Of a stretch of 64,000 nt of DNA, positions 1,723-45,787 are shown in pieces (positions within the stretch are counted from its first letter, which is position 1; each line of letters opens with the position of its first letter). This DNA is from an uncultured Clostridium sp. (GTDB taxonomy: Bacteria > Bacillota > Clostridia > TANB77 > CAG-508). Where the stretch lies: assembly GCA_964371215.1 (NCBI GenBank), contig CAYJKU010000001.1, positions 63,335-127,334 on the forward strand, read 5' to 3'. Under the pieces are notes generated by a model. That model searched no databases. It saw only the letters and a list, made by a program, of their open reading frames with translations, and had not been told where the DNA came from. The position numbers and the translations under genes were made by a program.

Positions 1723-1753
1723 GTAGAAAAAAGTGGAAAAGGAGGGAATAGTA

Positions 1754-3304: not shown

Positions 3305-3321
3305 GAGAAAGAGGTAGAATA

Positions 3322-10216: not shown

Positions 10217-10217
10217 T

Positions 10218-31900: not shown

Positions 31901-34900
31901 GGTACATCAAGTGTTGTAGTAACAGAAGGTGAAAAACAATTAATTGTTCAAATTACTGTAATTCCAGAAAATACAGATGTAAAATCTTCTGTAGAAACAA
32001 CAGATTCACATACAGCTATCTTAAAAGCTGATGGAACTGTATGGACATATGGACAAAATAATTATGGACAATTAGGAATTGGAAATACAAGTAATGTAGA
32101 TGATTTAACACAAGTAATATTTAGTGAAAATGTTAAAATTATAAGTATTAAAACAGGAGAAAACCATACAATTGCACTTGATGAAAATGGAAATGTATGG
32201 ACTTGGGGAAGAAACACAAGTTACCAATTAGGTGTAACAGGTGGAACTAGAACAAGACCAATTAAATTAGATTTAGGTGTCAAAATAGAAAAAATCGAAG
32301 CAGGATATAATCAATCTTTTGCAATAACAGAAAATAGAGAATTAATATCATGGGGAGATAATTCTAATGGTGAACTTGGTGTTAACAAATATACATATAC
32401 TACATTACCTACAAAAGCATATGAAATAGAAGATGTATTAGATGTACAAGCAGGAAGATCACATACTTTAATATTAAAAACAAATGGTGATGTGTATGGA
32501 ACAGGGCACAACGGATTTGGTACTCTTGCAATAGAAGAATATAGAATAAATTCATTTAGGAAAATAGAAGAATTATCTAATATTGAATATATATATGCTG
32601 GAGAATATCAATCAGCTGCATTAGCTATGGATAACAATATGTATGTATGGGGATATAATATCTATGGTAACTTCGGATTAGGAAATAAAGATACAATTAA
32701 AGTACCAACTATATTAGAAGGAATAAATAATATAGAAGAAATTAGTTTAGGAAAAACATATTCAAGTATAATTACTGAAGATGGAAAAATGTACATGTCA
32801 GGTTCAAATGTTCAAGGACAGTTTGGTAATGATACAGATGAATCGACAGAAATATTTGTAGAAGTAACTAATATTAATGAAGTTATAGATATATCAGTTG
32901 GAAATACATATAGTGCAGCAATTAAAGCAGATGGTACAGTTTGGGCATGGGGAGACTATTATCACGGAATAACAGATACAAGAACAATAACTAATAGTTT
33001 AGTGCCAATACAAGTTGGAATAGATAAATTTGCTTTAAAAGAAAATGAAATCACAGTAAATGTAAGTAGAAATAAACAAATTGAAGTAATACCTAATGAA
33101 GATTTCAATGTATATGTTACAAAAGAAGAAACAATTAATGAATATAACTATATTTCATTAAATCCAGAAGTTGTAACAGTAAATGAACAAGGAGTATTAA
33201 CAGGTATTAAAGTAGGTACAACATGGGTTAAAGTACAAGATAGAGTAACAGGAGAAGAACAAGTTGCAATAATAAGAGTAATTGGAAATACAAATACAGT
33301 TGCTCCACAAATAGCAGCAGGGAATAATTTTGTTAATATCTTAAAAGCAGATGGTACAATATGGTCTGCAGGATATAACTCACAAGGACAATTAGGTAAT
33401 GGAACATATACACCATCAAATACATTAAACCAAATAAATAATGTAAAAACATATACACAAATATTAGCTGGAAATGATTTTGTAATAGCTCTTAAAAATG
33501 ACGGAACAGTATATGCATGGGGAGAAAATTCACTTGGACAATTAGGACAAGGAAACAGAGTAAATATGACAGCACCGACACAAATTCCAGGATTACAAGA
33601 TATTGTTAAAATATCTGCTGGAGATAATCATGTAGTTGCATTAAATAAATATGGAGAAGTATATTCTTGGGGATCAAATTCTAATTATCAATTAGGATTA
33701 GGAAATAATAAAAACCAAGATATTCCTCAAAAAATGGTATTACCACAAATTAAAGTAATAGATGTTGAAACAGGAGAAAATGGAACTGTAATAATAGATT
33801 CATTAGGAGATATGTATACAGTTGGATTATCTAATGAACAATATAATACAATTACTAAAATAGAAAATGTTTCTAATGTAGTAAAAGCTGAAATAAGTGG
33901 AAATAGCATAATTGCTTTACTTGAAAATGGGAATGTAATAAATATTGCAGATAGTGTAACAGATATATATACAGCAGGGAATGCTACAGATATATCAGCA
34001 GTTGCAGATGAAAATATGATACAAACAAATTCAGGGGAAGTATATACATTTGGATTAAATGCAAGTGGTGAATTAGGAAATAATAGTACTAATGAAATAA
34101 CAGTACCTACAAAAATAGAAAGAGAAAACACAATTATAGGAATAGGATCTGGAGAACATAATACATATATTATTGAAGATACAGGTAGAGTATATGCAGC
34201 TGGAAATAATGATTATGGACAAATAGGAAATAATACAAATGAAGGAAACATGGAATATGTACTTGTAGATTCAAATAAAGTAGAGTTATCACCAGAAAAT
34301 GAAGTAATTGTGGAAAATGAAACCTTAACATTTGAAATGATTTCAAATAGATTCAATGTTTTAAAAGAAGATTCAAGAATAATTACAGATTTTACATGGT
34401 CTGTAACTGATGAAACTATATTAGAAAATATAGAAGATGGAACTGTAAAAGGTTTAATTCCTGGAAAAGCAGATGTTGTATTAACAGAAAAAGAAACAGG
34501 AGCAGTTATAAACAGTGTAGTAATTGTTGAAGAAGCAGATAAAGCTAGAATCGAAAGAATAACAGTAGGAAATACTTTAGCTAAAATAACAGATTCAATG
34601 ACATATGAAGTAACAATAGCAGAAAGTAATTCAGAAGAATTAAAAATTACAACTAAAGATAAATCAGATAAAATCAGTATAGATAATGGTACTACTTGGT
34701 TTGAAAATGGAATATTGACATTAAATAAAGAAATATTATCTAATCCAGAAGTAGTTGAAATCTTAGTAGAAAGTGAATTTGGAATACAATATGAATTTAC
34801 CTTAAACATAATTAGTAAATCTAATAATGTAGATTTAGAATATATTAAAGTAAATGATATAACTGCAACAGCTATTAATGGAAATAATTATCAAGTAATT

Positions 34901-37900
34901 GTTCCAGAAAATACAGAAATCCTAAACTTAGAAGCAAAAACAGTAGATTCTGCTGCAAGTGTAAGTATAGAAGGACAAGAAGCAAGTAAACAAATTCAAA
35001 CTAAAGAAATAGCTATGGAAGAATATACTGTAAGAACAATTCCAGTAAAAGCTATATCTGAATTTGGTAATGAAGTAGAATATATATTAACTATATATGA
35101 AGAAACTGCATTAACAGAATTAGAAAGCTTAACTGTAAATGGAAAACAGGCAATTAAAAATAATATTTCAGAATATAGTATAGTTGTATCAAAAGAAACT
35201 GAAAGTGTAGAAATAGTTGCTAAATCTGTATATGAATTAGCAGATGTTAATATAAATCACTTAGGTGAAGAAGTACAAATTTCTACAAGAACAATAGAAA
35301 TAAATTCAGATGAAACAGTAGTTAGAATTACAGTTTCAGCAAATGGAAAAGATAAAGAATATACACTTAAAATTGAAAAAGAAAAAGATGCAACAAGTTT
35401 ATCTTCTGTATATGTAAATGGAGCTATAGTTGCAAATGTAAATAATACATTTGAAGCAACAGTAAACTCATCTGCAATTAACGCAGAAATAACAGCAATT
35501 GCATCAGTTGAAACAAGTTTAGTCAAAATTGCTGAAAATGAATCTGAAATCAAAATGTCAACTAAAACTGTTGAAATATCAGGAAATGAAACAATATATG
35601 AAATAATAGTAACTGATGGAAGTAATAGCGAAAACTTTGAAGTATACACTTTAATACTTAAGAAACCATCTACAGATAATTCATTAAAAGAAGTATCAGT
35701 AAGTAATGGTCTAAGTGTTATAAAAGCTGAAAAATCATCAGAAGGAAATATATATAATGTAAAAGTAAATGATACAGATACAGTATTAGATGTAAAAGCA
35801 GTAGCAAATTATGCATTAGCAGAAGTTGCAATACAAAATGATATATATACTATTGGGACAAATGAAAGTGAAATCACTTTAAATGAGGATACTACAAGTA
35901 TATTAATTAAAGTTAAAGCACAAGATGGAACAATAGCAGAATATACACTAAATATTGAAAGATTATCTTCAAATACAAATATATTAAATATAACTGTAAA
36001 TAATAATGAAACAACATTAAGCAAGACAGAAGAAAATGTATATGAATATACATTAACTGAAAGTTTAGCAAATGTAGATGTAAAAGTTACAATGGAAGAT
36101 AATTTAACAGATGTAGCGATAAATAATAAATTATTTGAAAAAGCTACAATTACAAAAACAGTAGATATAACAGGTAGATCAGTTGATGTAGTAATTAACA
36201 CTAAAGCTGAAAATGGTGATGAAAAAACATATAAATTAATCATAAAAGGATTACCAGATACTACTAATTTATCTAAAATAACTGTAAATAATATTGAAGC
36301 TATATATGTAGATAGTGGAGATAAATATCAAGTTAAATTAAATAAAAATGTAACAGAATTTACAGTAACAGCTGTTGCTGAAGATATATTATCTAAAATA
36401 GGAATAAATGAATTTGAAAATGAGGTAGCAACAACTACAAAAGTTATTTCAAAAACAGGTAATATAACAACTGTTAAGATAATTGTTACAGCACAAAATG
36501 GTATCGCAACAGGAGAATATATTTTAGAAATACTAGAACAATCTAGTGAAACAGGAATTAAAACTTTATCAGTAGATAATAATCTTGTGGATATAGATGA
36601 AAATGGTAAATATAGTACAAGTGTTGTAAACAAAGATACTGTTCAAATAGGAATTGTTTTAGTAGATGAAAATGCTACAGTTAAAATTGGAGAAATTGAT
36701 GGATTAACATCTACTCAAGATATCCAAGATGGAACAACAACAATTCCAGTAATAGTAACTGCAGAAGATGGAACTACAAAATCATATGAAGTAGTTATAT
36801 ACAAAATGTCTAATAATACAAATGTAACATCAATAGTTGTAAATGGAGAGTTAGCAATACTTGACGAAAATAATAATTATGTTGCAAATGTAGGAAATGC
36901 TAGTGAAGCTCAAATAGTTGTAACAGCAGAAGATGTTAAAGCTAGTGTTGAAATAGATGGTAATTTACCTCAAATGTCAACAAGTACAGCTACAATAGAA
37001 ATATTAGAAGATCAAGAATTGGTAGTTACAAATTTAACTGCTGAAGATGGAACATCAGAAGCTAAACAATTAATTATTAATACATATTCTAAAGATACAT
37101 CAATACTTAGTTTAACAGCTGAAAATATAGATAGTGAAAAAATTAGTCAAACAGGTGAATCTACTTATGAAATTGAAGTAAGTAATTTAACTACAAACAT
37201 TAATTTAACAGCTATAACTACATTTAATAAAGCTAAAGTTAAAATAGAAGATGGTGTGTATTCAGAAAATACAGTTACACAAGATGTAAATATTTCTGGT
37301 AAAGAAGAAATTAATATAACTGTTCAAGCTGAAAATGGAGATGAAAAAACATATATAGTATCAATTGTTAGAGTATATGATTTATCTATTAAATCTTTAT
37401 CAGTAGATAATACTATTATAGAAGAAGTAGATGGACAATATACAGCATGGGTAAACAGTAGTGTGACATCATCAGCATTAAAAATAGATACATTAAGTCC
37501 AGAAGCAATAATTAAAATTGGTGAAGAAACATATACTAACACAGTTACATTAAATGTAAATGTACCAGATAATACAAATACTATAAAAGTAAGTATATTA
37601 TCTCCAGATGGAAAAAATGAAACTTCATATAATGTGTATATAAATAAAAAATCTGGAGATACAGATTTAGAATATGTACAAGTAGATTCAAGTTTTGGTA
37701 GTTATGAAGAAGATAAATATGTAGTAACAGTTCCAATAAAAGATGATACATATTTATTAAAAGCTAAACCTAATAATGAATATGCTAAAATCAAAATAGG
37801 AAATAGTGAATTCTCATTAGGAGAAGTATCTTCTGAAATAGACTTATCTGGTAAAACAGAAGAAACAGTTCAAATAACTGTTGAAGCACAAGATGGAACT

Positions 37901-40900
37901 ACAAAAGTATATGATTTACTTATTAAAAAAGTTTCTTCAGATAATACTTTAAAAGTTGTTAAAGTAAATAATGTTGAATTAACTGAAGAAAACGGAGTAT
38001 ATAGGACATATATTAAAAATAATGTAACATCAGCACCAATATATATTGAAACTAATCATTCAAATGCAAAAATTATTGTAAAAGAAACTGAATATACAAA
38101 TATTGCAACATTTACTGAAAATACAGAAACAGGATCAAATTTAGAAATAACAGTAATTGCTGAAAATGGAACAACAGTTAAATATAATTTAATTATTGAA
38201 CATGAATCAAATGATGCAAGTGAACAAAGTGTAATAGTAGATGGTCAAGAAGCTGTTAAAATTGGAGACAATACATATAGAGCAACAGTTAAAAAAGATC
38301 AAGAAACTGCAAACATTTATGTTAAAGCAGCAAATGAAAAAGCAACAGTTAAAATAAATAATAATCCTCAAATAGCAATATATGAAAATACTATTCCAGT
38401 ACAAATTACAGATAGTAAATCAATTATAGTGCCAGTAACAATTACTGCACAAGATGGAACAACAACTAATACATTTAACATTGAAATTGAGCAAATATCT
38501 AATAATGTAAATATTGAAACAATTACAGTTAATGGATCAAGTGTTACAAGTTATGATGAATCATCAAAAACATATAATATAACACTTACAGATAATTCAT
38601 TAGAAGAATCTACTGTATATATTAAAACTGAAGATGTATTATCTAAAGTTAAAATAGAACCAGGAGAGTTATCTACACATGAATTAACAAATGTTGTTGG
38701 TATACCAGATGATATTACTACTTTAATAATTACAGTAATAGCAGAAGATGGTTCAGAAGGTAAATATAATTTAATTATTAAAAAATTATCTAAAGATGCA
38801 GAAATATTAGAATTTTCATTAAATGGAAATATAATTGAGATAAGTGCAGATGGTAAATATTTAATAAATACTGTAGAAAGTGTAACATCAGGTAATATAA
38901 GAGTAGTACCAAGTAATGAATTTGCAAAAGTTACTATTGAAGGAGTTCAAAGTTCAAATGTAGGTATATTTGAAAGAACAATCAATTTACCAGATCAAAG
39001 AACTTATGAAACAAAAGTAGTGGTAACTGCAGAAGATGGAACAGTTAAAGAATATCCAGTTATTGTTACTAAGATTTCAGATGATGTAAATGTTGGTAAA
39101 TTAACAGTAAATGGAGTAACTGTAACAGATTATTATGAAGATACAAAAACATTTGAAGCATTTATAACTGCTGAAAGTACAACTGCAAGTATTGTAGTTA
39201 CACCAGGAAGTAGTTATGCTAAAGCGGGATATGCTGAATTAGAACCAGCTACAAGTATATCGTATTCAGTAAATACACCAGGGGATATTACTTCATCAGA
39301 ATTCTATATAATGGCAGAAGATGGAACAATTCAAAAATATACTATTAAAATGCAAAAAATGTCGACAGATGATTCTTTAAAAGAAGTATTTGTTGATGGT
39401 AAATTAGTATTACCAGATGAAACAGGAAATTACTATATAAATGTTGCAGAAGATTTAGAAAAATCACTTGTAAAAGTAGTTTCAATGAGTGAATATGCTA
39501 CAATTAGTATTAATTACGAAGTAGCAGAACAATCTCAAAGTATAAGAGAAACTATGTTACAAACAAAATCTACAACAGTAAATATAGTAGTAGCACCTCA
39601 ACAAGGGGCAAGTAAAACATATACATTAGTAATATATAAAGGTTCTACAAATAATAATTTAGCAAGTGTTAAAGTAGATGGAGAAAATGTAATAACATAT
39701 AATCCAGAAACTAGAACATATGAAGCATTTATTACAAATGGAGCTACAAGTTCAGCAATTGAAATATTAGCTGAAAACGAATATGCAACAATAACAGTTG
39801 GAGAAAATACTGCAAAAGGAAAATTAACATATAGTCAAGTAGTAGAAGATGCTGTAACAACAATTGGAATTGATGTAACATCAGAAGTTGGGGAAACTCA
39901 AAAATATACATTAAAATTAAAATATATTTCAATAGATAATACAATTAAATCAGTAATGGTTGATGATGTATTAATTGAAGAAGATAGATTTGATGGATAT
40001 GTAACATATGTAGTAGATACAAATGAAATTGCTAATATTAAAATAGAAGCGAATAATCAATATGCAACAATTAATATTAATGATTTAATAGAATCAGAAC
40101 AATTAGCAGAATTAGAAGTTACTTTATCAGAAGATAAAGAATTAAATGTACCATTTACAATAATTGCTCAAGATGGAACTGAAAGTGTACATACATTAAA
40201 AATAGTAAAAATATCAGATAATAATTCAATCCAAAGTGTTAAAGTAAACAATGAAGAAATAACATCTTATGATGAAGAAACTAAAACATATACAGCATAC
40301 ATAAATGAAGATATAGTAGAAGCTGAATTAGCAATAGTTGCAGCAAATAGTATGGCGAGTATAGAAATAGGAGTAAACAGCAATGTTGGAAATATAACAG
40401 AAGTTATAGAAATAACAGAAGATATGACAACTATAAATGTAAAAGTAACAGCAGAAACATCAAGAGAAGAAAATTATGTGGTAAATATAATTAGAAAATC
40501 AGGAAATGCAAATATTAGTTTAGTAGAGGTAAATGATATAGGTATAAATTCACCATATACTACTACTATCAAAAAATTAGATGAAACAGCTAAAATAAAA
40601 ATCGTAACAGAAAACGAAAATGCAAGTATTAAAGTAGGAGAAAATGAACCAGTAATAGGAACATTTGAATTAGTTGTAGACTTAGAATTAAGTCAAGAAC
40701 AAATAGTAATTCCAGTAGTAATAACTTCACAAGATGGAGTAAATGTAACAAACCATAATATAACATTAAATAGATTAAATAATGAAACAAGTATTAAGAT
40801 ATTAAATGTAGATGGAACTGAGATTACAGGAATAGATGGAGAATATGAAGCATTAGTAGTAGGAAAAGATACAGCTGAAATATATATTGAATTAACAGAT

Positions 40901-42001
40901 AGTAATGCAAAAGTAAAAGTAGATAGTGGAGAATTCAGTACAGGAACATTAACAGCTACAGTTGATACAAAAACAACAACAATAAGAACAATAACAGTGG
41001 AATCAGCAGATGGAACTGTAAAAGAATATGTATTAACATTAACTAAAAAAATAGCAATTGAAGGTAAAGTAATAACTCAAGGAATAACAAATCATATTGC
41101 GACTGTAACAGCATATAGAACAGATGATACAAGAGTAATAGGAGATGAAGAAAATCCAAGAGAAGAAATGGCTAAAGTGGAAACAAGAGAAGATGGAACA
41201 TATCAATTAATATTAGAACCAGGAATGTATGATATAGTAATAACAAAACCAGGATATTTAAGTCATACAGTAACACATATTAGTTTAGAAGAAGGTTCAA
41301 ATGCAGTCATAGAAGATAAGTCAATTTATGGTGGTGACGTTATAGAGACAGGTGAAATAGAAATAGATGACTTAGTAAATATGAATAAAATGTATGGAAG
41401 ACCAATAACAGATGTAAATAGAAAATATGATTTAAATGATGATGGAAAAATAGATATTTTAGATAGAAATATGTTAAGAGCAAATTATACTAAAAAATCT
41501 ATAGTTGAAAAATGGGTAAATCCTAATCCAGTAATTCCAGAAACAATAAATGAAGTTCAAAAAGAACAAGTTAAATTCATAATTCCATTAGAAGGAAACT
41601 ATGAAGTAACAAGTGAATATGGACAAAGAATCCACCCAGTAACAGGTGAAGAATCTAAACATACAGGTATAGATATAGCAGGAGCTCATAGAGCAAATAT
41701 ATTATCTATAGCAGATGGTGAAGTAGTATTTGCAGGAGAAGCTGGAGGATTTGGAAATGCAATAGAAATAAGACATGAAGTAGATGGAGAAGTGGTATAT
41801 AGTTTCTATTCACATTTATCACAAATAGATGTAGAAGTAGGAGATAAAGTAACACAAGGACAAGTTATAGGATTAGAAGGTGGAGATCCAGAATTAGACC
41901 AAAATGTTGGATTAAGTACAGGACATCATTTACATTTTGAAATAAGAGTAAAACAAGGATATGGAAATGATGTAGACCCTAGACAATATATTAATTTCTA
42001 A
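10946..42001 (+). CDS. giant (10,351-aa) multidomain surface protein: signal-anchor, RCC1 beta-propeller/Big_2 array, 23 cadherin-like domains, prealbumin-like domain, dockerin-like module, C-terminal M23 metallopeptidase
   Basis: A single uninterrupted 31,056-bp ORF with a good RBS. The N-terminus is MNKLKNGKDNFKITRKGLAVIILIALITVIAAILGI (basic n-region plus a 20-aa hydrophobic helix). There are well over 100 RCC1 blades of the form DGTVWxWGxNxYGQLGxG. Big_2 domains recur as Y(T/K)SL..(E)IATVSETGLVTAV..G...I and W.SSN.E.ATVD..G.VTA.S.G. A cadherin-like array spans 34545-41040. The M23 domain has HTGIDIA (HxxxD) and HHLHFEIRV (HxH) motifs. Confidence 0.9.
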   Translation: MNKLKNGKDNFKITRKGLAVIILIALITVIAAILGISKTYQNVLVSNKQLNSIKGNDVNKGAAQLLVNNISVKTTDAKVVTAENHTVLLKEDGTVWSWGANESGQLGMGQTGTGYNSINPIQVVGINGEGFLTDVVDIAANRQYTIALKSDGTVVTWGLGTSGQLGNFTNVSSPFPVVVIDQNQEPLTGITQIAAGYNSGYVVKNDGTAYSWGADSYGSLGSSKTSTRNYAMNVEVTNSEGEIVNLTNVQDITGGQYHGIALLNDGTVWSWGWNRYGKLGDGTKTNADIAIQTNITDVKKIVSGEYFVIALKNDGTIWTWGRNSYGQVGHGAVSTSSTGGIVTPGQPLKTDGTALVDVKDIGVISETTYAITNSGEVYAWGLNTSGQVADKTVANKTRAVVMQDRFGNLAGNVTLPDSPNGETAHMLDGEKLIATGKNNANQLQIPTSVASINYMTILDQSEQELVLNNNQEYIKIGESIQLTAKYNETMNIYSTNLLAGNLEYISSNSNIATVNNSGQVRGVGAGEVTIICTDKTNGNEARIQLNIIDNKDGVITNSMVVSNQYATIMLKEDGTVLSMGKNTNNVLGIGATVAYQTYLPIQVIQENGEKLTNVVKISAGIHHTLALKADGTVWSWGYNNYGQLGLGNSTTYGVAKQVVNVDNTGYLTDIVDISTSTYTSVALTKEGIGYSWGYGSGYGLGLTSASNRTLPSQIISSKEIVQIELGESKIHLLLSDGRIKSMGTNTYGQLGTGLGTSTYTYFEYAVNEDNTKYLTDVARISSGKIHTIALMENQTAYGWGYNNYYELGNETRTNQLLPKQLTGISNEGIMENIREVSAAPNSTIVLLNNGTVYAAGLNTTGQLGIGTNSNSQMFTPVVEYKVVEEETIVSQITDIVKLGDNKYLSQGYIKNDGTVNMTGENVSLQLGDNTALNRNITVKSGVGVEKIYTQSETIKIDINGKYQIVTKYSEGLNLRLIDEIVKNPNELTYISKNESVATVSAAGEITGKSNGQTGIEIIDETNNLETTVYVQIGEVQEQDILEIQTSTRFTVALKNDGTVWTWGLGTYGELGNGKFENSIEPVQVISPTGQGFLTDIVDIAIGDTFVLALNKNGNVYSWGRNTSGELTAGPERRSVPGLVLQYDGTPLNGVKEITARISSAAAVKIDGTVFAWGVNTSGQLGQGNSTNISYATQVKDTQGTGVIQNIKSASMGTSHLVMLTNEGTVFAVGVGSAGQLGNGVKGNTTLPVQMKVDATTVVTDVVQIATGNIVSYVLKNDGTILATGDSNDGKTGQGNETDIIYLMPVLKAAGEPLTNVSEITDSYFTQIAITKDNKVYSFGRNNYGQAISTVIANRLYATEITGSYGVTDYPKIIETSSDKTANYTYLVKEDGSVLGMGLQDNYKSQTSGTGTQTILREINPSYMEITNRRNYLKVGENVTLETNVVENFNMFGEAPIVGNLTWESSNEEVAVVNSNGVVTAISEGDTTITVIDSKYGYVASSIIHVTKNIEGNITVPQVEQGTYFTIALKADGTVWATGYNNYGQLGDGTTTLSPDMKQVKINETEYLANIVRIEVAEYHVLALDKNGEVWAWGRNSHGQLGQNTTTNSSYPIKVKNSVGDGNITNVIDIAVTNETSIFLKADGTVEMVGDNGHGKLSTGNTTASRLPIKATGIDNVLDVSGNNDSVIFLQGTGKVWAVGNNSSAELGDKTVTISYLPREVSNSTGDGQLSGIVQIATGLHHTAALAKDGSVYIWGRGTNGQLGNNQTVATNTIPVKVIDGSNTSSAIKNVSYVGTSQYTTSVVTKDGKMYSTGENSSNQLGTGTGVDSLVFIEAKDTTNSNISDILFVTNSIGNISNNAVIKEDGTIWTTGTNEYGQLGNGTFETNTVYGLVGKYQIDAENEQTIKEKETYQITAKRIPPFNVFNLQDTRENNMTYTSLNTEIATVSATGLVTAVSMGQVRIDIYDQLTEVIESINIKVVAEEGDIATPQVLSTTNAVLNLKTDGTVTSWGNSTNGILGNGTTSGIQATETNVLEVGGVGNLSNVVQIEAAVETGYALKADGTVVGWGQNNYGQLANHTTSISTTPVYILDVSKNKLTDIVKISATYQGGLALKSDGTVWAWGYNNYSQLGIGSTSQVYYAIQVKDSTGKAFLTDIKDISSGHGSNYAIKNNGTVFAWGRNSYGELGTGNTTASALPVETLKGLDVKKIAANMRSLYVLTEKGELWSVGYNGQGQLGNGTTSTSSVLVRVLDESGKALTNIVDIGGQEYTGFAKDANGVIYSWGENTSGQAGQNSLVNVTRATPIKGKYGELLTNKIKFLPNGYNGNMPAIFLIGYDGLIYSAGTTANYVALEGRSYNKTGFEEITPDYMQINERTVYLKETQTQILTTSVVSKVNGFGKVIEPGKLTWSSSNGAIATVDQNGKVTAISEGRVNIKVVDTNGYTASSNIIVTKNSENVVTIPQIGVGLNFTVILKADGTVWTSGTNTYGQLGSGNTLERNVVGQVKISENKNLENIVKISVGDSHVMALTTNGEVYVWGYNSVGQLGQNTTTNSIYAVKMLNETGTDEISNIIDISATDDTSVLLNSAGKILSVGSNSYGEFGTGNTTASRLPVMMTDKENIIQISSTERSLSYLTGEREVWSIGYNSYGQFGDKTTTAGYYPVQAMDDDSVGVLSNITKISTGIHHVVALSEDGYAYTWGYGLQGQLGNNTMVNSSVPTKILTIDGTKAIQDIIDIGTSERTTSVLSTSEGLLTTGQNSYYEIGNGNNTNTKLLVKPQVVQGANLDNILTLSNSNQSAYNNSVIKKDGSVYIVGANTYGQIGNETYTLSSNYTEVGNIGLATKSAHTMKVDSTYQIQVERTDSLNVYNDVIQRNNKLIYSTSDEEIATISETGLVTGKATGLATINIFEESTEVTTQVMIRVVETEGEIAIPQIVSSSTATFSLKADGTVTSWGTNSSGVLGNGTTAGIQYEEKNVLGVGGEGILSDVVQISAAYDSVYALKADGTVVSWGNDTYGKLGDKVSGNSSTPVYVVDSKGERLTNVIKIDNTYYGAMALKADGTVWAWGYNGQSQLGQGNSTNYDYAVQVKDTTGRGYLIGIKDIAAGYRTGYAIDNTDTIWAWGYNSYGEHGVGATGATTLPRQSNVDLDIKKMVVGTSQVYILTEQGSIYAWGRNSEGQLGIGTIAHSYVPVQVLGVDGKPLTNMVDIGAQEYTAFAKDADGVIYSWGENTSGQAGQNSLVNVTRATPIKGQYGETFTEEIKYLPSGYIGNMNTQYLIGEDGTVYASGYGASRGMLQTTSYNWLGFKAVLPDYLQINERVSYIKEGETKELTTSVVGRLNAYGKPISIGNLVWKSSNEEIATVDQKGVVTAKTSGEVTIIAVDSSNGNIASATINVTKNTKGTVAIPMTAMGQGYTAILKADGTVWTVGDNTYGQLGDGTNITKTQPVQVKINSTEFLTNVVRIEVGFTHTLALTKNGEVYAFGQNQFGQLGQGNTTSLNYATRVKDITGTNYLENIVDIAIAGGSASYVSSYALTTDGFVYGWGNNSYSQLGDKTTTNRYLPVKVQDAYNVKDIAGSYAAIHMLNQDTTVSGVGYSAHGQLGSNVTFSNHTADIQDVINPTRNGVFRGIVKIEGGTHHVMYLTEDEKAYAAGYNAYGQLGTGNTTNYIYPIQLKSDMKIVDISASYHSSIIKTEQVVDGEKVYKVWNAGYNLGGQFGIGNTTNSSIFVELKDSSNQNVNLDIDMIGASKPSTSGNSSYIDINGYVWTVGANSYGQLGNDTFNTSYNVIRIGSLILIPNEYTYTMNPSNTKQISLTLTDTFNVYNKETTLGSIEYKSLDTDIATVSETGLVTAVTKGSTRIQITDKTNDVKTVIFVDVLPENEEIKYTSMVDGGTSHSVALKSDGTVWAWGLNSKGQLGNNTTITTENPTQVVGVNIEKFLTDIKQIAVGSNHTLALKADGTVYSWGDNTYGQLGDNSNSIKYAPVQVLGENGQGVLSNIKYIEAGESVSIAVDEEGKVYAWGQNQYGQLGDGTNIARSVPVKTKAALTGIIQVDTYNRHTVAVKADGTVWAWGYNSHGELGDGTTTARNIPVQMKLTATTYIENAIEVATQRYSTNILLDNGTVLSVGYNAQGQLGDGTTTQRLLPVTVRGVGNNGVLSNIVSISGGYYSAYALSKNGQVYSWGYNNLGQLGNNTQTVSSLPVNVVNSSIEGNLENIISIGSGTYHVLAIEDTGFVQTWGSNASKQLGDSTLPHASIPVYISSKIEMIPSDAKLVINETVQLGIKMNSFNLFEDINEEGREVIYKSLNEEIATVSETGVVTAKSFGVTRILATDVVSGRVATAEISVLENNKQVSPKIDNGSNHFISLKADGTVWTWGDNTYGQLGNGSNIDSQVPTEIKIEDVIDVAAGFNHSIVLKKDGTVWTWGYNGYGQLGQGNTTTSYTPVQVKGVNGQGYLTNVKAVFGNGYTTFALLNTGEVVGMGRNTYAELGDRTTSNRYTPVYVLDQYGVSPMKDIIDVIPSTTSVAAIRADGTVWAWGYNHYGQLGINTLINSKITLPMQVRDVTGTNTLQNIIQVTSHYSGFTALKADGTVYSWGYGTQGRLGIGSNSSSYMPIQVKSPDGTGFLTDIVRLDGKFSSIAISADGKVYSWGSNSYGQLGVKTNSYRNLPTQVFAENGTDYLTDIMFATSGNSTAFVDYEGNVYTTGYNINGELGNDTTINRNIVTNVSEVIISNNENPIKLGKSGETHQLEAVAKKRFNLLKETVDNVNLKYTSLDESIATVSETGLVTAVGTGYTFIKISDETLGTSTSVKVEVLGDGITLPKVIGGENFYIALKADGTIYTWGRNSQGQLGQGHTTNVLEPTKVEGLEGIIDIAAGRYSAYVVKSDGTVWGTGYNNYGQLGINNTTRKNTFTQVLAENGIDYLSGIIGISANNYHVAALKQDGSVVAWGYNGYGQLANNSTTTKYIPTKMHGVNNVIQVEAGLHSMYMLSGDGSIYAVGYNSYGNLGNGTTSGTITPIKVLNPEGTAEMENVREISAGSYHLGVITYDNKLYQTGYNSQGQLGDGTTSHKNKLVLVQENVKTVSSYMNITNIIKEDGTVWSTGRNAYGNAGNNTTANNTRFVQMLGENGIGIFENALFVTNSEESTLVADKSGKVYTTGYNGYGELGDSTTVTKRVLSGISLEKVTVKESIVTINSISGTKEIESSMNLGFNILYNELKNATFTYKSSNEKVATVTANDTKTKGIITAVDYGTTTIEVQNVETGGTAIVIVRVLREGDVANPKVVAGSDFSVALKSDGTVWTWGSNNYGQLGLGDTTYRTEPTKVENLEGIIDIAAGRSHVIALKSDGTIYTWGLNNYGQIGDNTNVNKNTPTKIVGLDNLIDITGGYYHTSVLKSDGTVYSWGYNGHGQLGDGTTGTKNSPTTVKGISNVKDISAGHYTTLAVTIDGNTWAWGYNGYGFLSTPAGTNVLPKLVGLDNIASVEVGINSYAAISNVGELYTWGLDSNQVLGNGNLGTTYVPTLVRDIDGEKLTGITNVDIGSYTTLATTSEGKVYGWGNNNYSQLGTGNTAVQSLPILLQNSMGEFTNVIEIASGYDHTIVVRNDGSVWTTGYNGAGRLGDKTTFNKNMYGSISDMNISLEENKIVLAKEGDTYELKPTISVGFNLLYDEIPETSYTYESANIDIATVSQTGVITAVSRGKTRIKLTEEKTNKITYLEVSVLQEGDITFPKVETSNYTTIALKSDGTVWGWGYNDYGQLGLGNNQTVISPTKLPIDNVIDISVGYRHSLFLKSDGTVWAVGNNSYGQLGNATKTSSYEILQVRDIDGGEYLSNIKSIDIGRYHSMALDKSGNVYTWGYNGQGQLGNGTYTLSTIPVKVSGISNIITIEAGYRSGYGLSNDGTVYSWGYNIYGQLGDGSSTTRTSPTRAFITNVIEISVSQSDNVLALKDDGTVWGWGRNTYNALTDVGGSAPKQLKGLDGNRMSGIKDIESSYYSGFAVTETGETIAWGYNTYGQLGIGNNSSTSVPVIVKESETENFANTLSISGGVNYTSFAKEDGTVWTVGDSAYNKLGNGEKVDLNIPKNIAIPYISVDNDELAIVENTSMNLNAKFDTGFNLFEDTKIDVELAYEIKDTNIATIDNTGNVTAKSVGKTYVYITYQNYVRRVEINVIAKEGESVIDVSAGARHTLSLKSNGTLWVFGNNVYGQLGTGLVDNTNILEPEQIDTGDIRFSQVATGRYHSMALDKAGNVYTWGYNAQGQLGNGTSATSGKLTKIETLSNIKEIYADEYKSMAIDINGNIYVWGSGFGATPIKYPYYTEVIDISESYVLLQDGTVWSISLTPVKVETLSNIVEIAEGTSHYLALSADGTIYAWGSNSYGQLGQGNTSSITVPTVVKNSDNTGNLTDIVQIETSRYSSYAITGDGNIYSWGRNIYNSLGVTTASDRITLPISVTTEEAIEITSGDYFGAYVDNAGFVHTWGYNGYGQLGHGDTTIHEIPSLIGEIGIENSLKNITLNINQTQELDIKLRNKFNLRIDEISSGEFNLDILNNDIISIENNNIVPKKVGTTVIIVNENVTGLTDTINVEVIENVTTPRIESGEDFTIAVKADGTIWSFGLNDKSQLGIGNSENQNEPVQIIMPDSSRIKDIEVGTSHTLILTENGKVYGFGYNGNGQLGLGHTYNSNKPTAFLDESGRTFTNIIDVSAVGNKSYVLTIDGDVYVTGEGYNKLATEILTDEKIISIYGNYGITIDKKAINLDTLEIISNVENVEKISVSDTHVILLTQNNVAYALGDNEYGQLGNGTKLDSNTAIQIKDSVGTGVLSNISEIKAGTNYSVAILENGDTYVWGSNENGKLSRISETDLVLPRKENIKENIFMIETGTNHTVIATEEGRVYAFGKGTEGQLGNLANENSIEPVQVGKESIVVDEYNITLNEKETLYLNARLRNFNILAKDVEGNFTYKANDTKTVTVDNTGKLTAISSGTSSVVVTEGEKQLIVQITVIPENTDVKSSVETTDSHTAILKADGTVWTYGQNNYGQLGIGNTSNVDDLTQVIFSENVKIISIKTGENHTIALDENGNVWTWGRNTSYQLGVTGGTRTRPIKLDLGVKIEKIEAGYNQSFAITENRELISWGDNSNGELGVNKYTYTTLPTKAYEIEDVLDVQAGRSHTLILKTNGDVYGTGHNGFGTLAIEEYRINSFRKIEELSNIEYIYAGEYQSAALAMDNNMYVWGYNIYGNFGLGNKDTIKVPTILEGINNIEEISLGKTYSSIITEDGKMYMSGSNVQGQFGNDTDESTEIFVEVTNINEVIDISVGNTYSAAIKADGTVWAWGDYYHGITDTRTITNSLVPIQVGIDKFALKENEITVNVSRNKQIEVIPNEDFNVYVTKEETINEYNYISLNPEVVTVNEQGVLTGIKVGTTWVKVQDRVTGEEQVAIIRVIGNTNTVAPQIAAGNNFVNILKADGTIWSAGYNSQGQLGNGTYTPSNTLNQINNVKTYTQILAGNDFVIALKNDGTVYAWGENSLGQLGQGNRVNMTAPTQIPGLQDIVKISAGDNHVVALNKYGEVYSWGSNSNYQLGLGNNKNQDIPQKMVLPQIKVIDVETGENGTVIIDSLGDMYTVGLSNEQYNTITKIENVSNVVKAEISGNSIIALLENGNVINIADSVTDIYTAGNATDISAVADENMIQTNSGEVYTFGLNASGELGNNSTNEITVPTKIERENTIIGIGSGEHNTYIIEDTGRVYAAGNNDYGQIGNNTNEGNMEYVLVDSNKVELSPENEVIVENETLTFEMISNRFNVLKEDSRIITDFTWSVTDETILENIEDGTVKGLIPGKADVVLTEKETGAVINSVVIVEEADKARIERITVGNTLAKITDSMTYEVTIAESNSEELKITTKDKSDKISIDNGTTWFENGILTLNKEILSNPEVVEILVESEFGIQYEFTLNIISKSNNVDLEYIKVNDITATAINGNNYQVIVPENTEILNLEAKTVDSAASVSIEGQEASKQIQTKEIAMEEYTVRTIPVKAISEFGNEVEYILTIYEETALTELESLTVNGKQAIKNNISEYSIVVSKETESVEIVAKSVYELADVNINHLGEEVQISTRTIEINSDETVVRITVSANGKDKEYTLKIEKEKDATSLSSVYVNGAIVANVNNTFEATVNSSAINAEITAIASVETSLVKIAENESEIKMSTKTVEISGNETIYEIIVTDGSNSENFEVYTLILKKPSTDNSLKEVSVSNGLSVIKAEKSSEGNIYNVKVNDTDTVLDVKAVANYALAEVAIQNDIYTIGTNESEITLNEDTTSILIKVKAQDGTIAEYTLNIERLSSNTNILNITVNNNETTLSKTEENVYEYTLTESLANVDVKVTMEDNLTDVAINNKLFEKATITKTVDITGRSVDVVINTKAENGDEKTYKLIIKGLPDTTNLSKITVNNIEAIYVDSGDKYQVKLNKNVTEFTVTAVAEDILSKIGINEFENEVATTTKVISKTGNITTVKIIVTAQNGIATGEYILEILEQSSETGIKTLSVDNNLVDIDENGKYSTSVVNKDTVQIGIVLVDENATVKIGEIDGLTSTQDIQDGTTTIPVIVTAEDGTTKSYEVVIYKMSNNTNVTSIVVNGELAILDENNNYVANVGNASEAQIVVTAEDVKASVEIDGNLPQMSTSTATIEILEDQELVVTNLTAEDGTSEAKQLIINTYSKDTSILSLTAENIDSEKISQTGESTYEIEVSNLTTNINLTAITTFNKAKVKIEDGVYSENTVTQDVNISGKEEINITVQAENGDEKTYIVSIVRVYDLSIKSLSVDNTIIEEVDGQYTAWVNSSVTSSALKIDTLSPEAIIKIGEETYTNTVTLNVNVPDNTNTIKVSILSPDGKNETSYNVYINKKSGDTDLEYVQVDSSFGSYEEDKYVVTVPIKDDTYLLKAKPNNEYAKIKIGNSEFSLGEVSSEIDLSGKTEETVQITVEAQDGTTKVYDLLIKKVSSDNTLKVVKVNNVELTEENGVYRTYIKNNVTSAPIYIETNHSNAKIIVKETEYTNIATFTENTETGSNLEITVIAENGTTVKYNLIIEHESNDASEQSVIVDGQEAVKIGDNTYRATVKKDQETANIYVKAANEKATVKINNNPQIAIYENTIPVQITDSKSIIVPVTITAQDGTTTNTFNIEIEQISNNVNIETITVNGSSVTSYDESSKTYNITLTDNSLEESTVYIKTEDVLSKVKIEPGELSTHELTNVVGIPDDITTLIITVIAEDGSEGKYNLIIKKLSKDAEILEFSLNGNIIEISADGKYLINTVESVTSGNIRVVPSNEFAKVTIEGVQSSNVGIFERTINLPDQRTYETKVVVTAEDGTVKEYPVIVTKISDDVNVGKLTVNGVTVTDYYEDTKTFEAFITAESTTASIVVTPGSSYAKAGYAELEPATSISYSVNTPGDITSSEFYIMAEDGTIQKYTIKMQKMSTDDSLKEVFVDGKLVLPDETGNYYINVAEDLEKSLVKVVSMSEYATISINYEVAEQSQSIRETMLQTKSTTVNIVVAPQQGASKTYTLVIYKGSTNNNLASVKVDGENVITYNPETRTYEAFITNGATSSAIEILAENEYATITVGENTAKGKLTYSQVVEDAVTTIGIDVTSEVGETQKYTLKLKYISIDNTIKSVMVDDVLIEEDRFDGYVTYVVDTNEIANIKIEANNQYATININDLIESEQLAELEVTLSEDKELNVPFTIIAQDGTESVHTLKIVKISDNNSIQSVKVNNEEITSYDEETKTYTAYINEDIVEAELAIVAANSMASIEIGVNSNVGNITEVIEITEDMTTINVKVTAETSREENYVVNIIRKSGNANISLVEVNDIGINSPYTTTIKKLDETAKIKIVTENENASIKVGENEPVIGTFELVVDLELSQEQIVIPVVITSQDGVNVTNHNITLNRLNNETSIKILNVDGTEITGIDGEYEALVVGKDTAEIYIELTDSNAKVKVDSGEFSTGTLTATVDTKTTTIRTITVESADGTVKEYVLTLTKKIAIEGKVITQGITNHIATVTAYRTDDTRVIGDEENPREEMAKVETREDGTYQLILEPGMYDIVITKPGYLSHTVTHISLEEGSNAVIEDKSIYGGDVIETGEIEIDDLVNMNKMYGRPITDVNRKYDLNDDGKIDILDRNMLRANYTKKSIVEKWVNPNPVIPETINEVQKEQVKFIIPLEGNYEVTSEYGQRIHPVTGEESKHTGIDIAGAHRANILSIADGEVVFAGEAGGFGNAIEIRHEVDGEVVYSFYSHLSQIDVEVGDKVTQGQVIGLEGGDPELDQNVGLSTGHHLHFEIRVKQGYGNDVDPRQYINF
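12550..23950 (+). repeat. four tandem super-repeats of about 2.83-2.85 kb within gene 3; each is a double RCC1 propeller plus two Big_2 domains
   Basis: Unit starts are recognisable at about 12.57, 15.47, 18.30 and 21.13 kb (VTKN...GT.IP...G..FT.ILKADGTVW...). There are near-identical DNA tracts, for example 17716-17877 versus 20546-20710 (FAKDANGVIYSWGENTSGQAGQNSLVNVTRATPIKGKYGE), offset 2830 bp. Confidence 0.75.
23950..34540 (+). repeat. eight tandem units of about 1.3-1.4 kb within gene 3; each is a single RCC1 propeller plus a Big_2 domain
   Basis: Unit starts with the motif (V/I)xVLxEGD(I/V)..PKV..G..F..ALKADGTVWTWG are at about 23.99, 25.39, 26.77, 28.12, 29.46, 30.71, 31.96 and 33.29 kb. 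Confidence 0.75.
34545..41040 (+). repeat. array of 23 cadherin-like beta-sandwich domains within gene 3; period about 282 bp (94 aa)
   Basis: The recurrent unit is ...L..L.VNG..(I/V).....Y...V......V.I.A.......V.I..........I.V.AEDG...(E/K)Y.L.I.K. I counted 23 domain ends of the type Y.L.I.K between 34.8 and 41.04 kb. Confidence 0.75.
41055..41290 (+). other. CarboxypepD_reg/prealbumin-like domain at the giant-protein C-terminus
   Basis: IEGKVITQGITNHIATVTAYRTDD...REDGTYQLILEPGMYDIVITKPGYLSHTV. Gene 1 shows the same architecture (GTYDIIIDKPGYLDYIITNV). Confidence 0.55.
41326..41495 (+). other. dockerin-like module of the giant protein
   Basis: GGDVIETGEIEIDDLVNMNKMYG...DLNDDGKIDILDRNMLRANY. 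The second loop is a canonical DxNxDGxIDxxD; the first loop is degenerate. Confidence 0.55.
41600..41960 (+). other. M23 family (lysostaphin/LytM-type) metallopeptidase domain, C-terminal in the giant protein
   Basis: YGQRIHPVTGEESKHTGIDIAGA...GGFGNAIEIRHE...YSHLSQIDVEVGDKVTQGQVIG...GHHLHFEIRV. Both zinc-ligand motifs, HxxxD and HxH, are present. Confidence 0.8.
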
Positions 42002-42031
42002 GCATACAATGTAAACAAAATATTAATAAAT

Positions 42032-42077
42032 AAACCGTATATAGAAGTAGAAATACTTCTGTATATGGTTTATTTTA
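42032..42077 (+). terminator. strong rho-independent terminator of the giant gene
   Basis: 18-bp stem aaaccgtatatagaagta-gaaa-tacttctgtatatggttt with two G-U pairs and a GAAA tetraloop, followed by aTTTT. Confidence 0.7.
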
Positions 42078-45694: not shown

Positions 45695-45787
45695 AAAAAC
45701 CTCCATTAATTTATTTTCAAAAATAGTGTATAATTAAAAAATTTAATTGTAAATACAAATGTTAGAAAAGATATAGAAGAATATATG

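What the first reader, a model, noticed from the sequence alone, without database searches (positions are those of the whole stretch)
41055..41998. Catalytically intact M23 endopeptidase at the distal end of the giant protein, preceded by dockerin and a prealbumin-like domain
The final roughly 130 aa carry both zinc-ligand motifs of lysostaphin-type peptidases, HTGID (HxxxD) and HHLHFEI (HxH), plus the conserved Gly-rich strand, so the domain is likely an active peptidoglycan hydrolase rather than a degenerate LytM-like module. Placing it at the tip of a protein several hundred nanometres long suggests peptidoglycan cleavage at a distance from the producing cell. Possible targets are neighbouring-cell septa (filament separation), competitor cells, or the producer's own outer layers during morphogenesis.
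Basis: partly seen in the sequence, partly recalled or inferred. Interest (0 to 1): 0.7.

Follow-up and report, generated by a model that had tools for sequence, protein, structure and literature searches.

The report
Wall-cutting enzyme on docked giant fibre
The last 140 residues of a 10,351-residue surface protein from an uncultured gut Clostridium are an intact M23 peptidoglycan-cutting enzyme. It sits next to a cellulosome-style docking module whose likely partners are encoded just upstream, so this end is probably plugged into another surface protein rather than being a free tip.

Summary
ORF 10946-42001 (10,351 aa, 1.1 MDa, no cysteine) ends in a Peptidase_M23 domain (Pfam E 1.8e-23). 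All five catalytic or zinc residues are present (H10239, D10243, H10290, H10328, H10330) and invariant in 28 homologues. They align with those of lysostaphin and NMB0315, and the AlphaFold model matches M23 structures.

The "prealbumin-like + dockerin" pair matches cellulosomal type II X-module-dockerin (XDoc) dyads. The two genes upstream carry cohesin modules. The 523-aa adaptor has a type II cohesin by fold (pLDDT 94.6; top 25 PDB hits). The 2,167-aa Ig stalk with a C-terminal membrane anchor has a module related to it (hhalign 98%).

The Cadherin-like/XDoc/M23 cassette ends large surface proteins in at least 78 loci of uncultured gut Clostridia. Heads vary, several copies occur per genome, and no conserved immunity gene follows.

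So the enzyme is very probably active, but "free distal tip acting at a distance" is doubtful. The C-terminus looks like the docked end. I favour local cutting of the producer's own wall to let the fibre pass and dock (about 0.4). Lysis of neighbouring cells is the main rival (about 0.3).

It is a new variant of known parts. Interest is moderate to high.
The parts
10946..42001 (+). Giant surface-protein gene: 10,351 aa, 1,116 kDa, pI 4.6, no Cys
   Evidence: ORF list; composition and mass; Pfam RCC1-like, Big_2, Cadherin-like, M23
10994..11053 (+). N-terminal Lys-rich and hydrophobic segment (aa 17-36): Sec signal peptide or signal anchor
   Evidence: Translation. The same feature occurs in shorter complete relatives. 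Whether it is cleaved was not determinable.
11207..34255 (+). About 17 seven-bladed RCC1-like beta-propellers (111 blades detected), separated by Big_2/Ig-like spacers
   Evidence: Pfam; self-built blade HMM
34598..41044 (+). 23 tandem Cadherin-like beta-sandwich domains (aa 7885-10033)
   Evidence: Pfam; self-built HMM
41042..41299 (+). X-module-like beta-sandwich (the 'prealbumin/CarboxypepD_reg-like' domain)
   Evidence: Pfam PF13620 E 3e-7; AF2 strands 19-96; Foldseek XDoc chains 4u3s_B and 5g5d_B, TM 0.68-0.70
41309..41515 (+). Dockerin-like module. Loop 1 (GDVIETGEIEIDD) is divergent; loop 2 (DLNDDGKIDILD) is canonical.
   Evidence: Pfam Dockerin_1 E 0.053 here and positive in homologues; two helices in the AF2 model; loop conservation; XDoc fold hits
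41516..41584 (+). Flexible linker, poorly conserved (25% identity), low pLDDT
41585..41998 (+). M23 zinc endopeptidase domain. Codons: H10239 (41660-41662), D10243 (41672-41674), H10290 (41813-41815), H10328 (41927-41929), H10330 (41933-41935).
   Evidence: Pfam E 1.8e-23; PDB sequence hits; invariant columns; lysostaphin alignment; Foldseek 6muk/3slu/ShyA/LytM/lysostaphin; codons checked
42028..42075 (+). Terminator-like hairpin directly after the stop codon
   Evidence: 3 found, 0.0 expected
1733..3304 (+). Adaptor, 523 aa: signal peptide, type II cohesin (nt 1844-2419), Cadherin-like domain, X-like module and dockerin (from nt 2969)
   Evidence: Pfam Cadherin-like and Dockerin_1; XDoc 35% identical to the giant's; AF2 pLDDT 94.6; top 25 Foldseek hits are type II cohesins
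3301..9804 (+). Anchor, 2,167 aa: signal peptide, cohesin-like module (nt 3433-4047), at least 15 Big_3 Ig domains, C-terminal transmembrane helix (nt 9478-9549) and an ~84-aa tail
   Evidence: Pfam Big_3 x15; translation; hhalign to the adaptor cohesin family 98%, E 1.8e-13; TM coordinates

Best explanation
The C-terminal 138 residues are a catalytically competent M23 (LytM/lysostaphin-fold, MepM/ShyA-like) zinc endopeptidase that cuts peptide cross-links of peptidoglycan. This domain is the last element of a conserved cassette: a Cadherin-like stalk, an X-module, a dockerin, a flexible linker and M23. The cassette terminates many large surface proteins of uncultured low-GC gut Clostridia, here a 1.1-MDa fibre of about 17 RCC1-like propellers.

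The X-module and dockerin form a type II XDoc dyad. Its likely receptors are the cohesin modules of two proteins encoded just upstream: a soluble adaptor (a type II cohesin by predicted fold, plus its own XDoc) and a long Ig-domain stalk with a related cohesin-like module and a C-terminal membrane anchor. The M23 end is therefore most likely the docked, cell-attached end of the fibre, and the variable N-terminal part is the exposed end.

Inferred mechanism: the giant protein is exported N to C through Sec, so the M23 domain emerges last, at the membrane-wall interface. There it locally opens the producer's own peptidoglycan mesh, so the bulky folded chain and its XDoc can pass the wall and dock onto the cohesin.

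Shown: intact active-site residues, the folds, the gene linkage and the conservation. Inferred: cohesin-XDoc pairing, topology, and the own wall as substrate.
For: M23 identity and intact catalytic set:
- Pfam E 1.8e-23 and PDB sequence hits.
- H221, D225, H272, H310 and H312 of the 333-aa fragment are invariant in 29 sequences.
- All three motifs are kept in every complete relative among the 78 loci.
- The alignment with verified lysostaphin matches HxxxD, the middle His and HxH.
- The AF2 model (pLDDT 86.9) matches 6muk, 3slu, ShyA, LytM and lysostaphin at rmsd about 2-2.6 A.

XDoc: the same model matches the type II XDoc chains 4u3s_B and 5g5d_B at TM 0.68-0.70.

Cohesins:
- The adaptor N-terminal model (pLDDT 94.6) has type II cohesins as its top 25 PDB hits, including the cohesin chains of 4u3s and 5g5d.
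- The anchor module is homologous to it (hhalign 98%) and its protein carries a C-terminal TM helix.

Linkage:
- The adaptor-anchor pair lies next to M23-ending proteins in the window and in L015, L033 and L056.
- The pair is itself conserved in L081-L084.

The cassette is the constant part:
- RCC1, ALK_LTK glycine-rich and GLUG heads all carry it.
- There are several paralogues per genome.
- M23 is the most conserved segment, 61% against 44-48% for X and dockerin.

Indications of own-wall action:
- The closest stand-alone relatives (52-60% identity) are short membrane-anchored M23 proteins in housekeeping neighbourhoods.
- No conserved immunity or FemABX-like gene follows the giant genes.
- Phage tail and tape-measure proteins with terminal M23 domains are a precedent for local wall opening by a long structural protein.
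Against: - Nothing here measures activity, zinc binding or cohesin-dockerin binding.
- The first dockerin loop is non-canonical, and Pfam Dockerin_1 is below threshold in this protein.
- The anchor holds its cohesin at the tip of at least 15 Ig domains, possibly tens of nanometres from the membrane. Once docked there, M23 on a roughly 25-residue linker might be beyond the producer's own wall, which favours a foreign target.
- The adaptor-anchor pair was adjacent in only 4 of the contexts that could be inspected.
- Whether the N-terminal hydrophobic segment is cleaved is unknown.
- A domain exported last cannot help the earlier parts of the same molecule cross the wall, unless it acts for the C-terminal end only or for neighbouring molecules.
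Confidence: 0.4

Rival explanations
1. Trans-acting tethered lysin. The fibre-cohesin assembly is an adhesive, cellulosome-like surface complex that presents an active M23 endopeptidase to the walls of other cells. Those could be competitors or prey (contact-dependent lysis), or sister cells of the same species (cell separation). This is.
For: - The catalytic set is intact.
- Docking on a cohesin at the end of a long Ig stalk would place M23 outside the producer's wall.
- RCC1 and Cadherin-like arrays look like binding surfaces.
- Secreted M23 bacteriocins such as lysostaphin and zoocin A share the fold.
- A preprint links giant proteins to cell-wall degradation in predatory bacteria and notes RCC1-type giant genes in gut Clostridia (doi 10.1101/2023.11.21.568195).
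- The host genomes are low-GC uncultured lineages.
Against: - No conserved adjacent immunity gene or cross-bridge-modifying (FemABX/Lif-like) gene.
- The lytic domain is the constant, most conserved part rather than a diversifying warhead.
- There is no SH3b or other wall-targeting domain next to M23.
- The nearest stand-alone relatives look like housekeeping genes.
Confidence: 0.3
2. Wall-anchoring or turnover module. The M23 domain mainly binds, and occasionally trims, the producer's peptidoglycan. It serves as a second attachment point for the fibre's C-terminus alongside the cohesin-dockerin link.
For: - It sits next to an attachment module.
- LytM-fold domains that bind wall or partner proteins without catalysis exist, such as EnvC, NlpD, DipM and SpoIIQ, and they appear among the hits.
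Against: All five catalytic residues are invariant across the family. Binding-only LytM domains usually lose them (established knowledge of EnvC, NlpD and SpoIIQ).
Confidence: 0.12
3. Non-peptidoglycan protease. The M23 domain cleaves a protein substrate, for example Gly-rich host or matrix proteins as LasA and beta-lytic proteases do, or it processes the fibre or its partners.
For: The M23 family includes enzymes that cleave Gly-Gly bonds in proteins (established knowledge). The habitat of the relatives is the animal gut.
Against: The best sequence and fold matches are peptidoglycan endopeptidases: MepM, ShyA, NMB0315, Csd/Pgp, StM23. The N-terminal Y-G-x-R-x-H-P motif typical of these enzymes is conserved.
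Confidence: 0.08

Closest known systems
M23 peptidoglycan endopeptidases of the MepM / ShyA / NMB0315 / Csd-Pgp type, and more distantly lysostaphin and LytM
   Same: Same fold and the same HxxxD, His and HxH catalytic constellation. Sequence E-values are 1e-16 to 1e-8 and rmsd is 2-2.6 A.
   Different: - No NCBIfam equivalog threshold is reached.
- A family-specific 7-residue insertion (GGDPELDQNVG) lies before HxH relative to lysostaphin.
- The domain is fused to the end of a 1.1-MDa protein behind an XDoc, instead of LysM, SH3b or coiled-coil partners.
Type II cohesin-XDoc attachment of cellulosomal scaffoldins (C. thermocellum CipA-SdbA; A. cellulolyticus ScaA-ScaB; PDB 2b59, 4u3s, 5g5d)
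   Same: An X-module plus dockerin dyad lies near the C-terminus of a very large modular protein. The co-encoded adaptor carries a type II cohesin by predicted fold, and an anchoring protein carries a related cohesin-like module.
   Different: - No CAZymes or type I system were seen in the window.
- The anchor uses a C-terminal transmembrane helix rather than SLH domains or sortase.
- The first Ca loop is non-canonical.
- An enzyme follows the dockerin.
- Sequence similarity to known cohesins is near zero: Pfam E 0.05-0.08, and PDB profile searches found no cohesin.
RCC1-type giant genes of gut Clostridia (West-Roberts et al., bioRxiv 10.1101/2023.11.21.568195)
   Same: Giant ORFs dominated by RCC1 repeats, in Clostridia from human, mouse and rabbit gut metagenomes.
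   Different: That text describes them as made entirely of repeats and lacking membrane anchors, and it has no occurrence of 'M23'. Here there is an N-terminal signal or anchor, a Cadherin-like stalk, an XDoc and an M23 enzyme, plus cohesin partners.
Phage tail, tape-measure and baseplate proteins with terminal M23 domains; peptidoglycan hydrolases dedicated to large envelope-spanning machines
   Same: An M23 domain is appended to a long structural protein, presumably to open the wall locally (PDB 9m7n and 9k2v).
   Different: The context here is chromosomal housekeeping (release factor, RuvA, ZIP, M18 aminopeptidase). No phage or conjugation genes are present.

Membership tests
Peptidase family M23 (active, LytM/lysostaphin-type) | HxxxD motif supplying two zinc ligands | tested here: met
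   H10239-T-G-I-D10243; invariant in 29 sequences; aligned to lysostaphin MHYGVD
Peptidase family M23 (active, LytM/lysostaphin-type) | HxH motif (third zinc ligand plus a catalytic His) and the middle catalytic His | tested here: met
   H10328-L-H10330 and H10290, all invariant; aligned to lysostaphin PHLHF and YMHLS; kept in all complete relatives
Peptidase family M23 (active, LytM/lysostaphin-type) | M23 beta-sheet fold | tested here: met
   AF2 pLDDT about 90 over residues 196-333; Foldseek 6muk, 3slu, 6ue4, 4qpb, 2b13 at E 1e-10 to 1e-8, rmsd 2.1-2.6 A
Peptidase family M23 (active, LytM/lysostaphin-type) | Zinc binding and hydrolysis of peptidoglycan peptides | not testable with these tools
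   Needs recombinant protein, metal analysis and muropeptide assays
Type II X-module-dockerin (XDoc) | Ig-like X module packed directly N-terminal to a two-helix dockerin | tested here: met
   AF2 model; Foldseek 4u3s_B (169 columns, TM 0.68) and 5g5d_B (TM 0.70)
Type II X-module-dockerin (XDoc) | Two canonical Ca-binding loops (DxNxDGxxxxxD) | tested here: inconclusive
   Loop 2 (DLNDDGKIDILD) is canonical. Loop 1 (GDVIETGEIEIDD) lacks the position 3 and 5 ligands, and this variant is conserved family-wide. Pfam Dockerin_1 is E 0.053 here and positive in homologues.
Type II X-module-dockerin (XDoc) | Binds a type II cohesin | not testable with these tools
   Candidate partners identified by fold and by homology; binding untested
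Type II cohesin (adaptor ORF 1733-3304) | Cohesin jelly-roll fold of the type II kind | tested here: met
   pLDDT 94.6, pTM 0.90. The top 25 Foldseek hits are all type II cohesins, E 5e-8 to 1e-5, TM 0.5-0.67. Sequence models fail.
Polymorphic toxin system | Variable C-terminal toxin domains with an adjacent cognate immunity gene | tested here: not met
   The C-terminal cassette is constant while the N-terminal heads vary. No downstream gene is conserved across loci except a CAP-domain protein in 12 loci and a small TM protein in 4.
Lysostaphin-type class III bacteriocin | Small secreted pre-pro-enzyme with an SH3b wall-targeting domain and a linked FemABX-like immunity factor | tested here: not met
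   No SH3b was reported by Pfam in the C-terminal region. No such immunity gene is present in the window.
RCC1-type giant genes of Clostridia | Giant ORF dominated by RCC1 propeller repeats, in gut Clostridia | tested here: met
   111 blades, about 17 propellers. Relatives occur in gut MAGs.

The most novel reading that the evidence does not exclude
Uncultured low-GC gut Clostridia build a non-cellulosomal, cellulosome-like surface machine. Megadalton fibres with variable heads are plugged through type II cohesin-XDoc links onto membrane-anchored stalks. Each fibre carries an active peptidoglycan endopeptidase, which is used for contact-dependent lysis of neighbouring bacteria, a 'bacteriolytic cellulosome'.
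Probability: 0.2. Interest if true: 0.85.

Novelty: new variant of a known kind. Interest (0 to 1): 0.58.

Why it matters
M23 enzymes, dockerins, cohesins and RCC1 giants are each known. Their combination has not been described in the literature I could search. That combination is an intact wall-cutting enzyme placed directly behind a type II XDoc at the end of megadalton fibres, with divergent cohesin partners encoded beside it.

It recurs in dozens of uncultured gut Clostridia from humans, mice, rabbits and ruminants, often several times per genome. These genes therefore take up a sizeable share of the sequenced contigs.

If the docking model is right, cohesin-dockerin assembly extends beyond polysaccharide degradation to cell-envelope architecture or bacterial antagonism. 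It would also give a testable answer to how a Gram-positive cell gets a 1-MDa folded fibre through its wall, or how it uses such a fibre to attack neighbours.

Tried and rejected
Ideas rejected:
- Assembly artefact or chance ORF. The ORF is open for 31 kb in AT-rich DNA and its internal repeats are only 60-80% identical.
- Phage or conjugative origin. The neighbours are housekeeping genes.
- Polymorphic-toxin logic. The cassette is constant and there is no immunity gene.
- Degenerate LytM. All catalytic residues are invariant.
- A separate small M23 gene after a giant gene in L001. The "gap" is a run of N in a scaffold, so it is one gene of about 12.6k aa.

Dead ends:
- Word-index homologue searches with either cohesin-like module found nothing.
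- PDB profile searches with the cohesin alignments found no cohesin.
- Pfam gave only E 0.05-0.08 for Cohesin. The fold was settled only by the exhaustive HMMER search plus AlphaFold and Foldseek.
- The window's own contig could not be retrieved, so the source organism is known only through relatives.
- The afdb50 library was unavailable.
- The whole giant protein was too long for the cluster look-up.
- No cohesin, SLH or sortase-type anchor was found elsewhere in the window.

Full report
**What is at the coordinates**

The window contains one uninterrupted ORF, 10946-42001 on the + strand, encoding 10,351 aa.
- The protein is 1,116 kDa, pI 4.6, and has no cysteine. The window is 27.6% GC, so a 31-kb ORF cannot arise by chance.
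- Its internal DNA repeats are only 60-80% identical, which argues against a collapsed or chimeric assembly.
- A terminator-like hairpin follows the stop codon at 42028-42075.

Otherwise the interval 41055-41998 covers three real domains.

**The M23 domain**

Sequence evidence:
- Pfam Peptidase_M23 scores E 1.8e-23, 83 bits against a cut-off of 28.7.
- A sequence search of the PDB returns 34 M23/LytM chains. The best are StM23 (9gy1), Csd1/TagE (5j1l), NMB0315 (3slu, 6muk) and ShyA at E 1e-16 to 3e-11. Lysostaphin and LytM follow at about 8e-9.

Conservation of the catalytic set:
- In an alignment with 28 homologues, H221, D225, H272, H310 and H312 of the 333-aa fragment are invariant.
- These correspond to H10239, D10243, H10290, H10328 and H10330 of the protein, and I checked the codons.
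- My recalled lysostaphin catalytic-domain sequence is 100% identical to PDB 4lxc_A. It aligns with the window domain at 34% identity (E 3e-14). MHYGVD, YMHLS and PHLHF fall on KHTGID, YSHLS and HHLHF.
- From established work on LytM and lysostaphin, these positions are the three zinc ligands and the two catalytic histidines.
- Among 78 related genomic loci, every complete copy keeps all three motifs.

Structure and naming:
- An AlphaFold model built from the alignment has mean pLDDT 86.9. Its last 138 residues superpose on NMB0315, ShyA, lysostaphin and LytM at rmsd 2.1-2.6 A.
- NCBIfam gives no equivalog. It ranks MepM, Pgp3, Pgp6 and ShyA first.
- The domain is therefore closer to DD-endopeptidase-type M23 enzymes than to glycyl-glycine enzymes.
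- A family-specific 7-residue insertion precedes HxH.

The claim "catalytically intact M23" is as well supported as sequence and a predicted fold allow.

**The two preceding domains are an XDoc dyad**

- Pfam sees a CarboxypepD_reg-like beta-sandwich (E 3e-7, just below threshold). It gives only a weak Dockerin_1 signal (E 0.053) in this protein, but many homologues are Dockerin_1-positive.
- The model shows a beta-sandwich (residues 19-96), two helices (122-131 and 153-161), a disordered linker (177-191), and then M23.
- Besides M23 structures, Foldseek matches the first half of the model to the X-module-dockerin chains of type II cohesin-XDoc complexes: 4u3s_B (169 columns, TM 0.68) and 5g5d_B (TM 0.70).
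- The second calcium loop (DLNDDGKIDILD) is canonical. The first (GDVIETGEIEIDD) is a non-canonical variant conserved across the family.

In cellulosomes this dyad is what fastens the scaffoldin to the cell surface (established knowledge of CipA-SdbA).

**Cohesin partners next door**

The two genes upstream belong to the same system.

ORF 1733-3304 (523 aa, the adaptor):
- It has a signal peptide, a Cadherin-like domain, and a C-terminal X-like module plus dockerin that is 35% identical to the giant protein's.
- Its N-terminal 190 residues contain a cohesin-like "GMDIVLQYDSNIL" motif.
- Sequence methods do not confirm it: Pfam Cohesin gives E 0.05-0.08, PDB profile searches find no cohesin, and two word-index homologue searches returned nothing.
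- An exhaustive HMMER search found 58 relatives. With their alignment, AlphaFold gave pLDDT 94.6 and pTM 0.90.
- The top 25 Foldseek hits in the PDB are all type II cohesins (4wi0_A, 5k39_A, 3fnk, SdbA 2bm3, 2b59_A). They include the cohesin chains of 4u3s and 5g5d, the two complexes whose XDoc chains matched the giant protein.

ORF 3301-9804 (2,167 aa, the anchor):
- It has a signal peptide and an N-terminal module homologous to that cohesin (hhalign probability 98%, E 1.8e-13).
- It then has at least 15 Big_3 Ig domains, a C-terminal transmembrane helix and a short tail.

Linkage:
- The adaptor-anchor pair lies immediately downstream of M23-ending proteins in three other genomes: L015, L033 and L056.
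- The pair is also conserved in four further contigs.

**Architecture and distribution**

From N- to C-terminus the giant protein has:
- a Lys-rich and hydrophobic N-terminus (signal peptide or signal anchor);
- about 17 seven-bladed RCC1-like propellers (111 blades) separated by Big_2/Ig spacers;
- 23 Cadherin-like beta-sandwiches;
- the X-module, dockerin, linker and M23.

If fully extended it would be roughly 200-250 nm long. This is my own rough estimate from typical domain sizes.

A scan of one genome per species found 361 relatives of the cassette. All 78 retrieved loci are uncultured Clostridia or Bacillota MAGs. Where the record names a source it is an animal gut: human including Hadza, mouse, rabbit, goat and water deer. 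They include "Clostridium sp." CAG:343 and CAG:440.
- In about 50 of the loci, the ORF ending in M23 runs more than 3,650 aa up to the edge of the fetched DNA and carries RCC1 motifs.
- One metagenome scaffold holds a copy of about 12,600 aa.
- Several genomes have three to five or more copies.
- The same Cadherin-like/XDoc/M23 cassette also ends proteins with other heads: ALK/LTK-type glycine-rich domains, GLUG motifs, or Cadherin-like domains only.
- M23 is the most conserved segment, with 61% mean identity to homologues against 48% for the dockerin, 44% for the X-module and 25% for the linker.
- The nearest stand-alone relatives (52-60% identity) are 220-250-aa proteins with an N-terminal membrane helix. 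They sit in housekeeping neighbourhoods (AdhE, NUDIX, RibD_C) and are followed by a pentapeptide-repeat gene.
- No immunity-like gene is conserved downstream. Twelve loci have a secreted CAP/SCP-domain protein and four (including the window) have a small membrane protein.

**How it most likely works**

Shown:
- The catalytic set is intact and under strong conservation.
- An XDoc fold lies directly upstream of M23.
- Two cohesin-bearing proteins are encoded in linkage (the adaptor's type II fold is modelled; the anchor's module is related by profile), and one of them is membrane-anchored.
- The C-terminal cassette is constant while the N-terminal heads vary.

Inferred:
- The XDoc docks on one of these cohesins, so the M23 end is the attached end and the variable N-terminal array is the exposed one, as in CipA.
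- I favour (about 0.4) a cis role. The protein is exported N to C, so the M23 domain emerges last at the membrane-wall interface. It cuts cross-links locally so the bulky chain's C-terminal end can traverse the wall and dock. Phage tail and tape-measure proteins with terminal M23 domains are the structural precedent.

The main rival (about 0.3) is a trans role. If the enzyme is docked at the tip of a long Ig stalk, it may lie outside the producer's wall and act on neighbouring cells. This is in line with the preprint that links giant proteins to wall degradation. The constant, non-polymorphic nature of the enzyme and the lack of immunity genes weigh against a weapon, but they do not exclude it or a cell-separation role.

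Two rivals are less likely. A binding-only role is unlikely because the catalytic residues are invariant. A non-peptidoglycan protease role is unlikely because the best matches are wall endopeptidases.

**Comparison with what is known, and novelty**

- PGAP already names fragments of these proteins "peptidoglycan DD-metalloendopeptidase family protein".
- RCC1-type giant genes of gut Clostridia have been noted in a preprint. That text describes them as repeats only, without anchors, and it has no occurrence of "M23".
- A full-text search for dockerin plus cohesin plus peptidase M23 returned one paper, a Caldicellulosiruptor genome study.
- A rumen survey reports dockerin-bearing peptidases, but not M23 and not type II cohesins.

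The M23 domain is an ordinary family member. The fusion behind a type II XDoc on megadalton fibres, together with highly divergent cohesin partners, is an undescribed variant assembled from known parts.

**Verdict**

Interest 0.58.

Noticed in passing
window 42681-43133 (+): A small protein (150 aa) with an Arg/Lys-rich N-terminus, a TM helix and a conserved C-terminal motif 'YYYISSKENTVEVR..RVNS'. Homologues lie just downstream of M23-ending giants in L005, L019 and L054. No Pfam family matched, and NCBIfam gave only weak sub-threshold matches. It could be a partner or regulator of the cassette.
   Followed up: partly
L002 1065-1604; L006 11687-12244; L015 11376-11909; L022, L023, L029 and others: A secreted CAP/SCP-domain protein of about 180 aa directly follows the M23-ending giant gene in 12 related loci, but not in the window.
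   Followed up: partly
window 42139-42447 (+): Short broken reading frames end in '...GIEQGRIKERNDLRMEIVKNLLNLKKSTQEISDITGITVKEVEELIKNIK'. By eye this looks like the C-terminal remnant of a transposase-like (Rpn/YhgA-type) gene. Not tested.
   Followed up: no
L072 9779-11080; L079 9680-11093: Stand-alone membrane-anchored M23 proteins, closest to the giant's M23, are each followed by a pentapeptide-repeat protein in two different Bacillota MAGs. This looks like a conserved gene pair of unknown meaning.
   Followed up: partly
protein P0171 (1,284 aa): One relative of the adaptor cohesin module matches it in 8 separate stretches. It may be a multi-cohesin scaffoldin of this non-cellulosomal system.
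   Followed up: no
window 10946-41998: The 10,351-residue protein contains no cysteine at all and is rich in Thr, Gly, Val, Asn and Ile.
   Followed up: no
window 9805-10945: The 1.1-kb spacer between the anchor and the giant gene has long A-rich low-complexity runs (about 9960-10200). It also holds a small reverse-strand ORF (about 10230-10465) and two hairpins (10199-10215 and 10703-10722). The giant gene therefore probably has its own promoter.
   Followed up: no
window 58897-59301 and 59322-59693 (+): Two adjacent ORFs each match half of the TauE/SafE sulfite-exporter profile, positions 122-235 and then 2-105. It is either a split gene or a two-gene arrangement.
   Followed up: no
window 43760-45706 (-): A 648-aa protein with a PF09826 beta-propeller domain (E 6e-161) is encoded convergently, 1.8 kb downstream of the giant gene. 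This is another secreted propeller protein of unknown role.
   Followed up: no
window 54989-56194 (-) and 62552-63325 (+): A YkuD L,D-transpeptidase and a polysaccharide deacetylase are encoded in the same window. The organism therefore makes and modifies peptidoglycan, possibly with 3-3 cross-links, which bears on the M23 substrate question.
   Followed up: no
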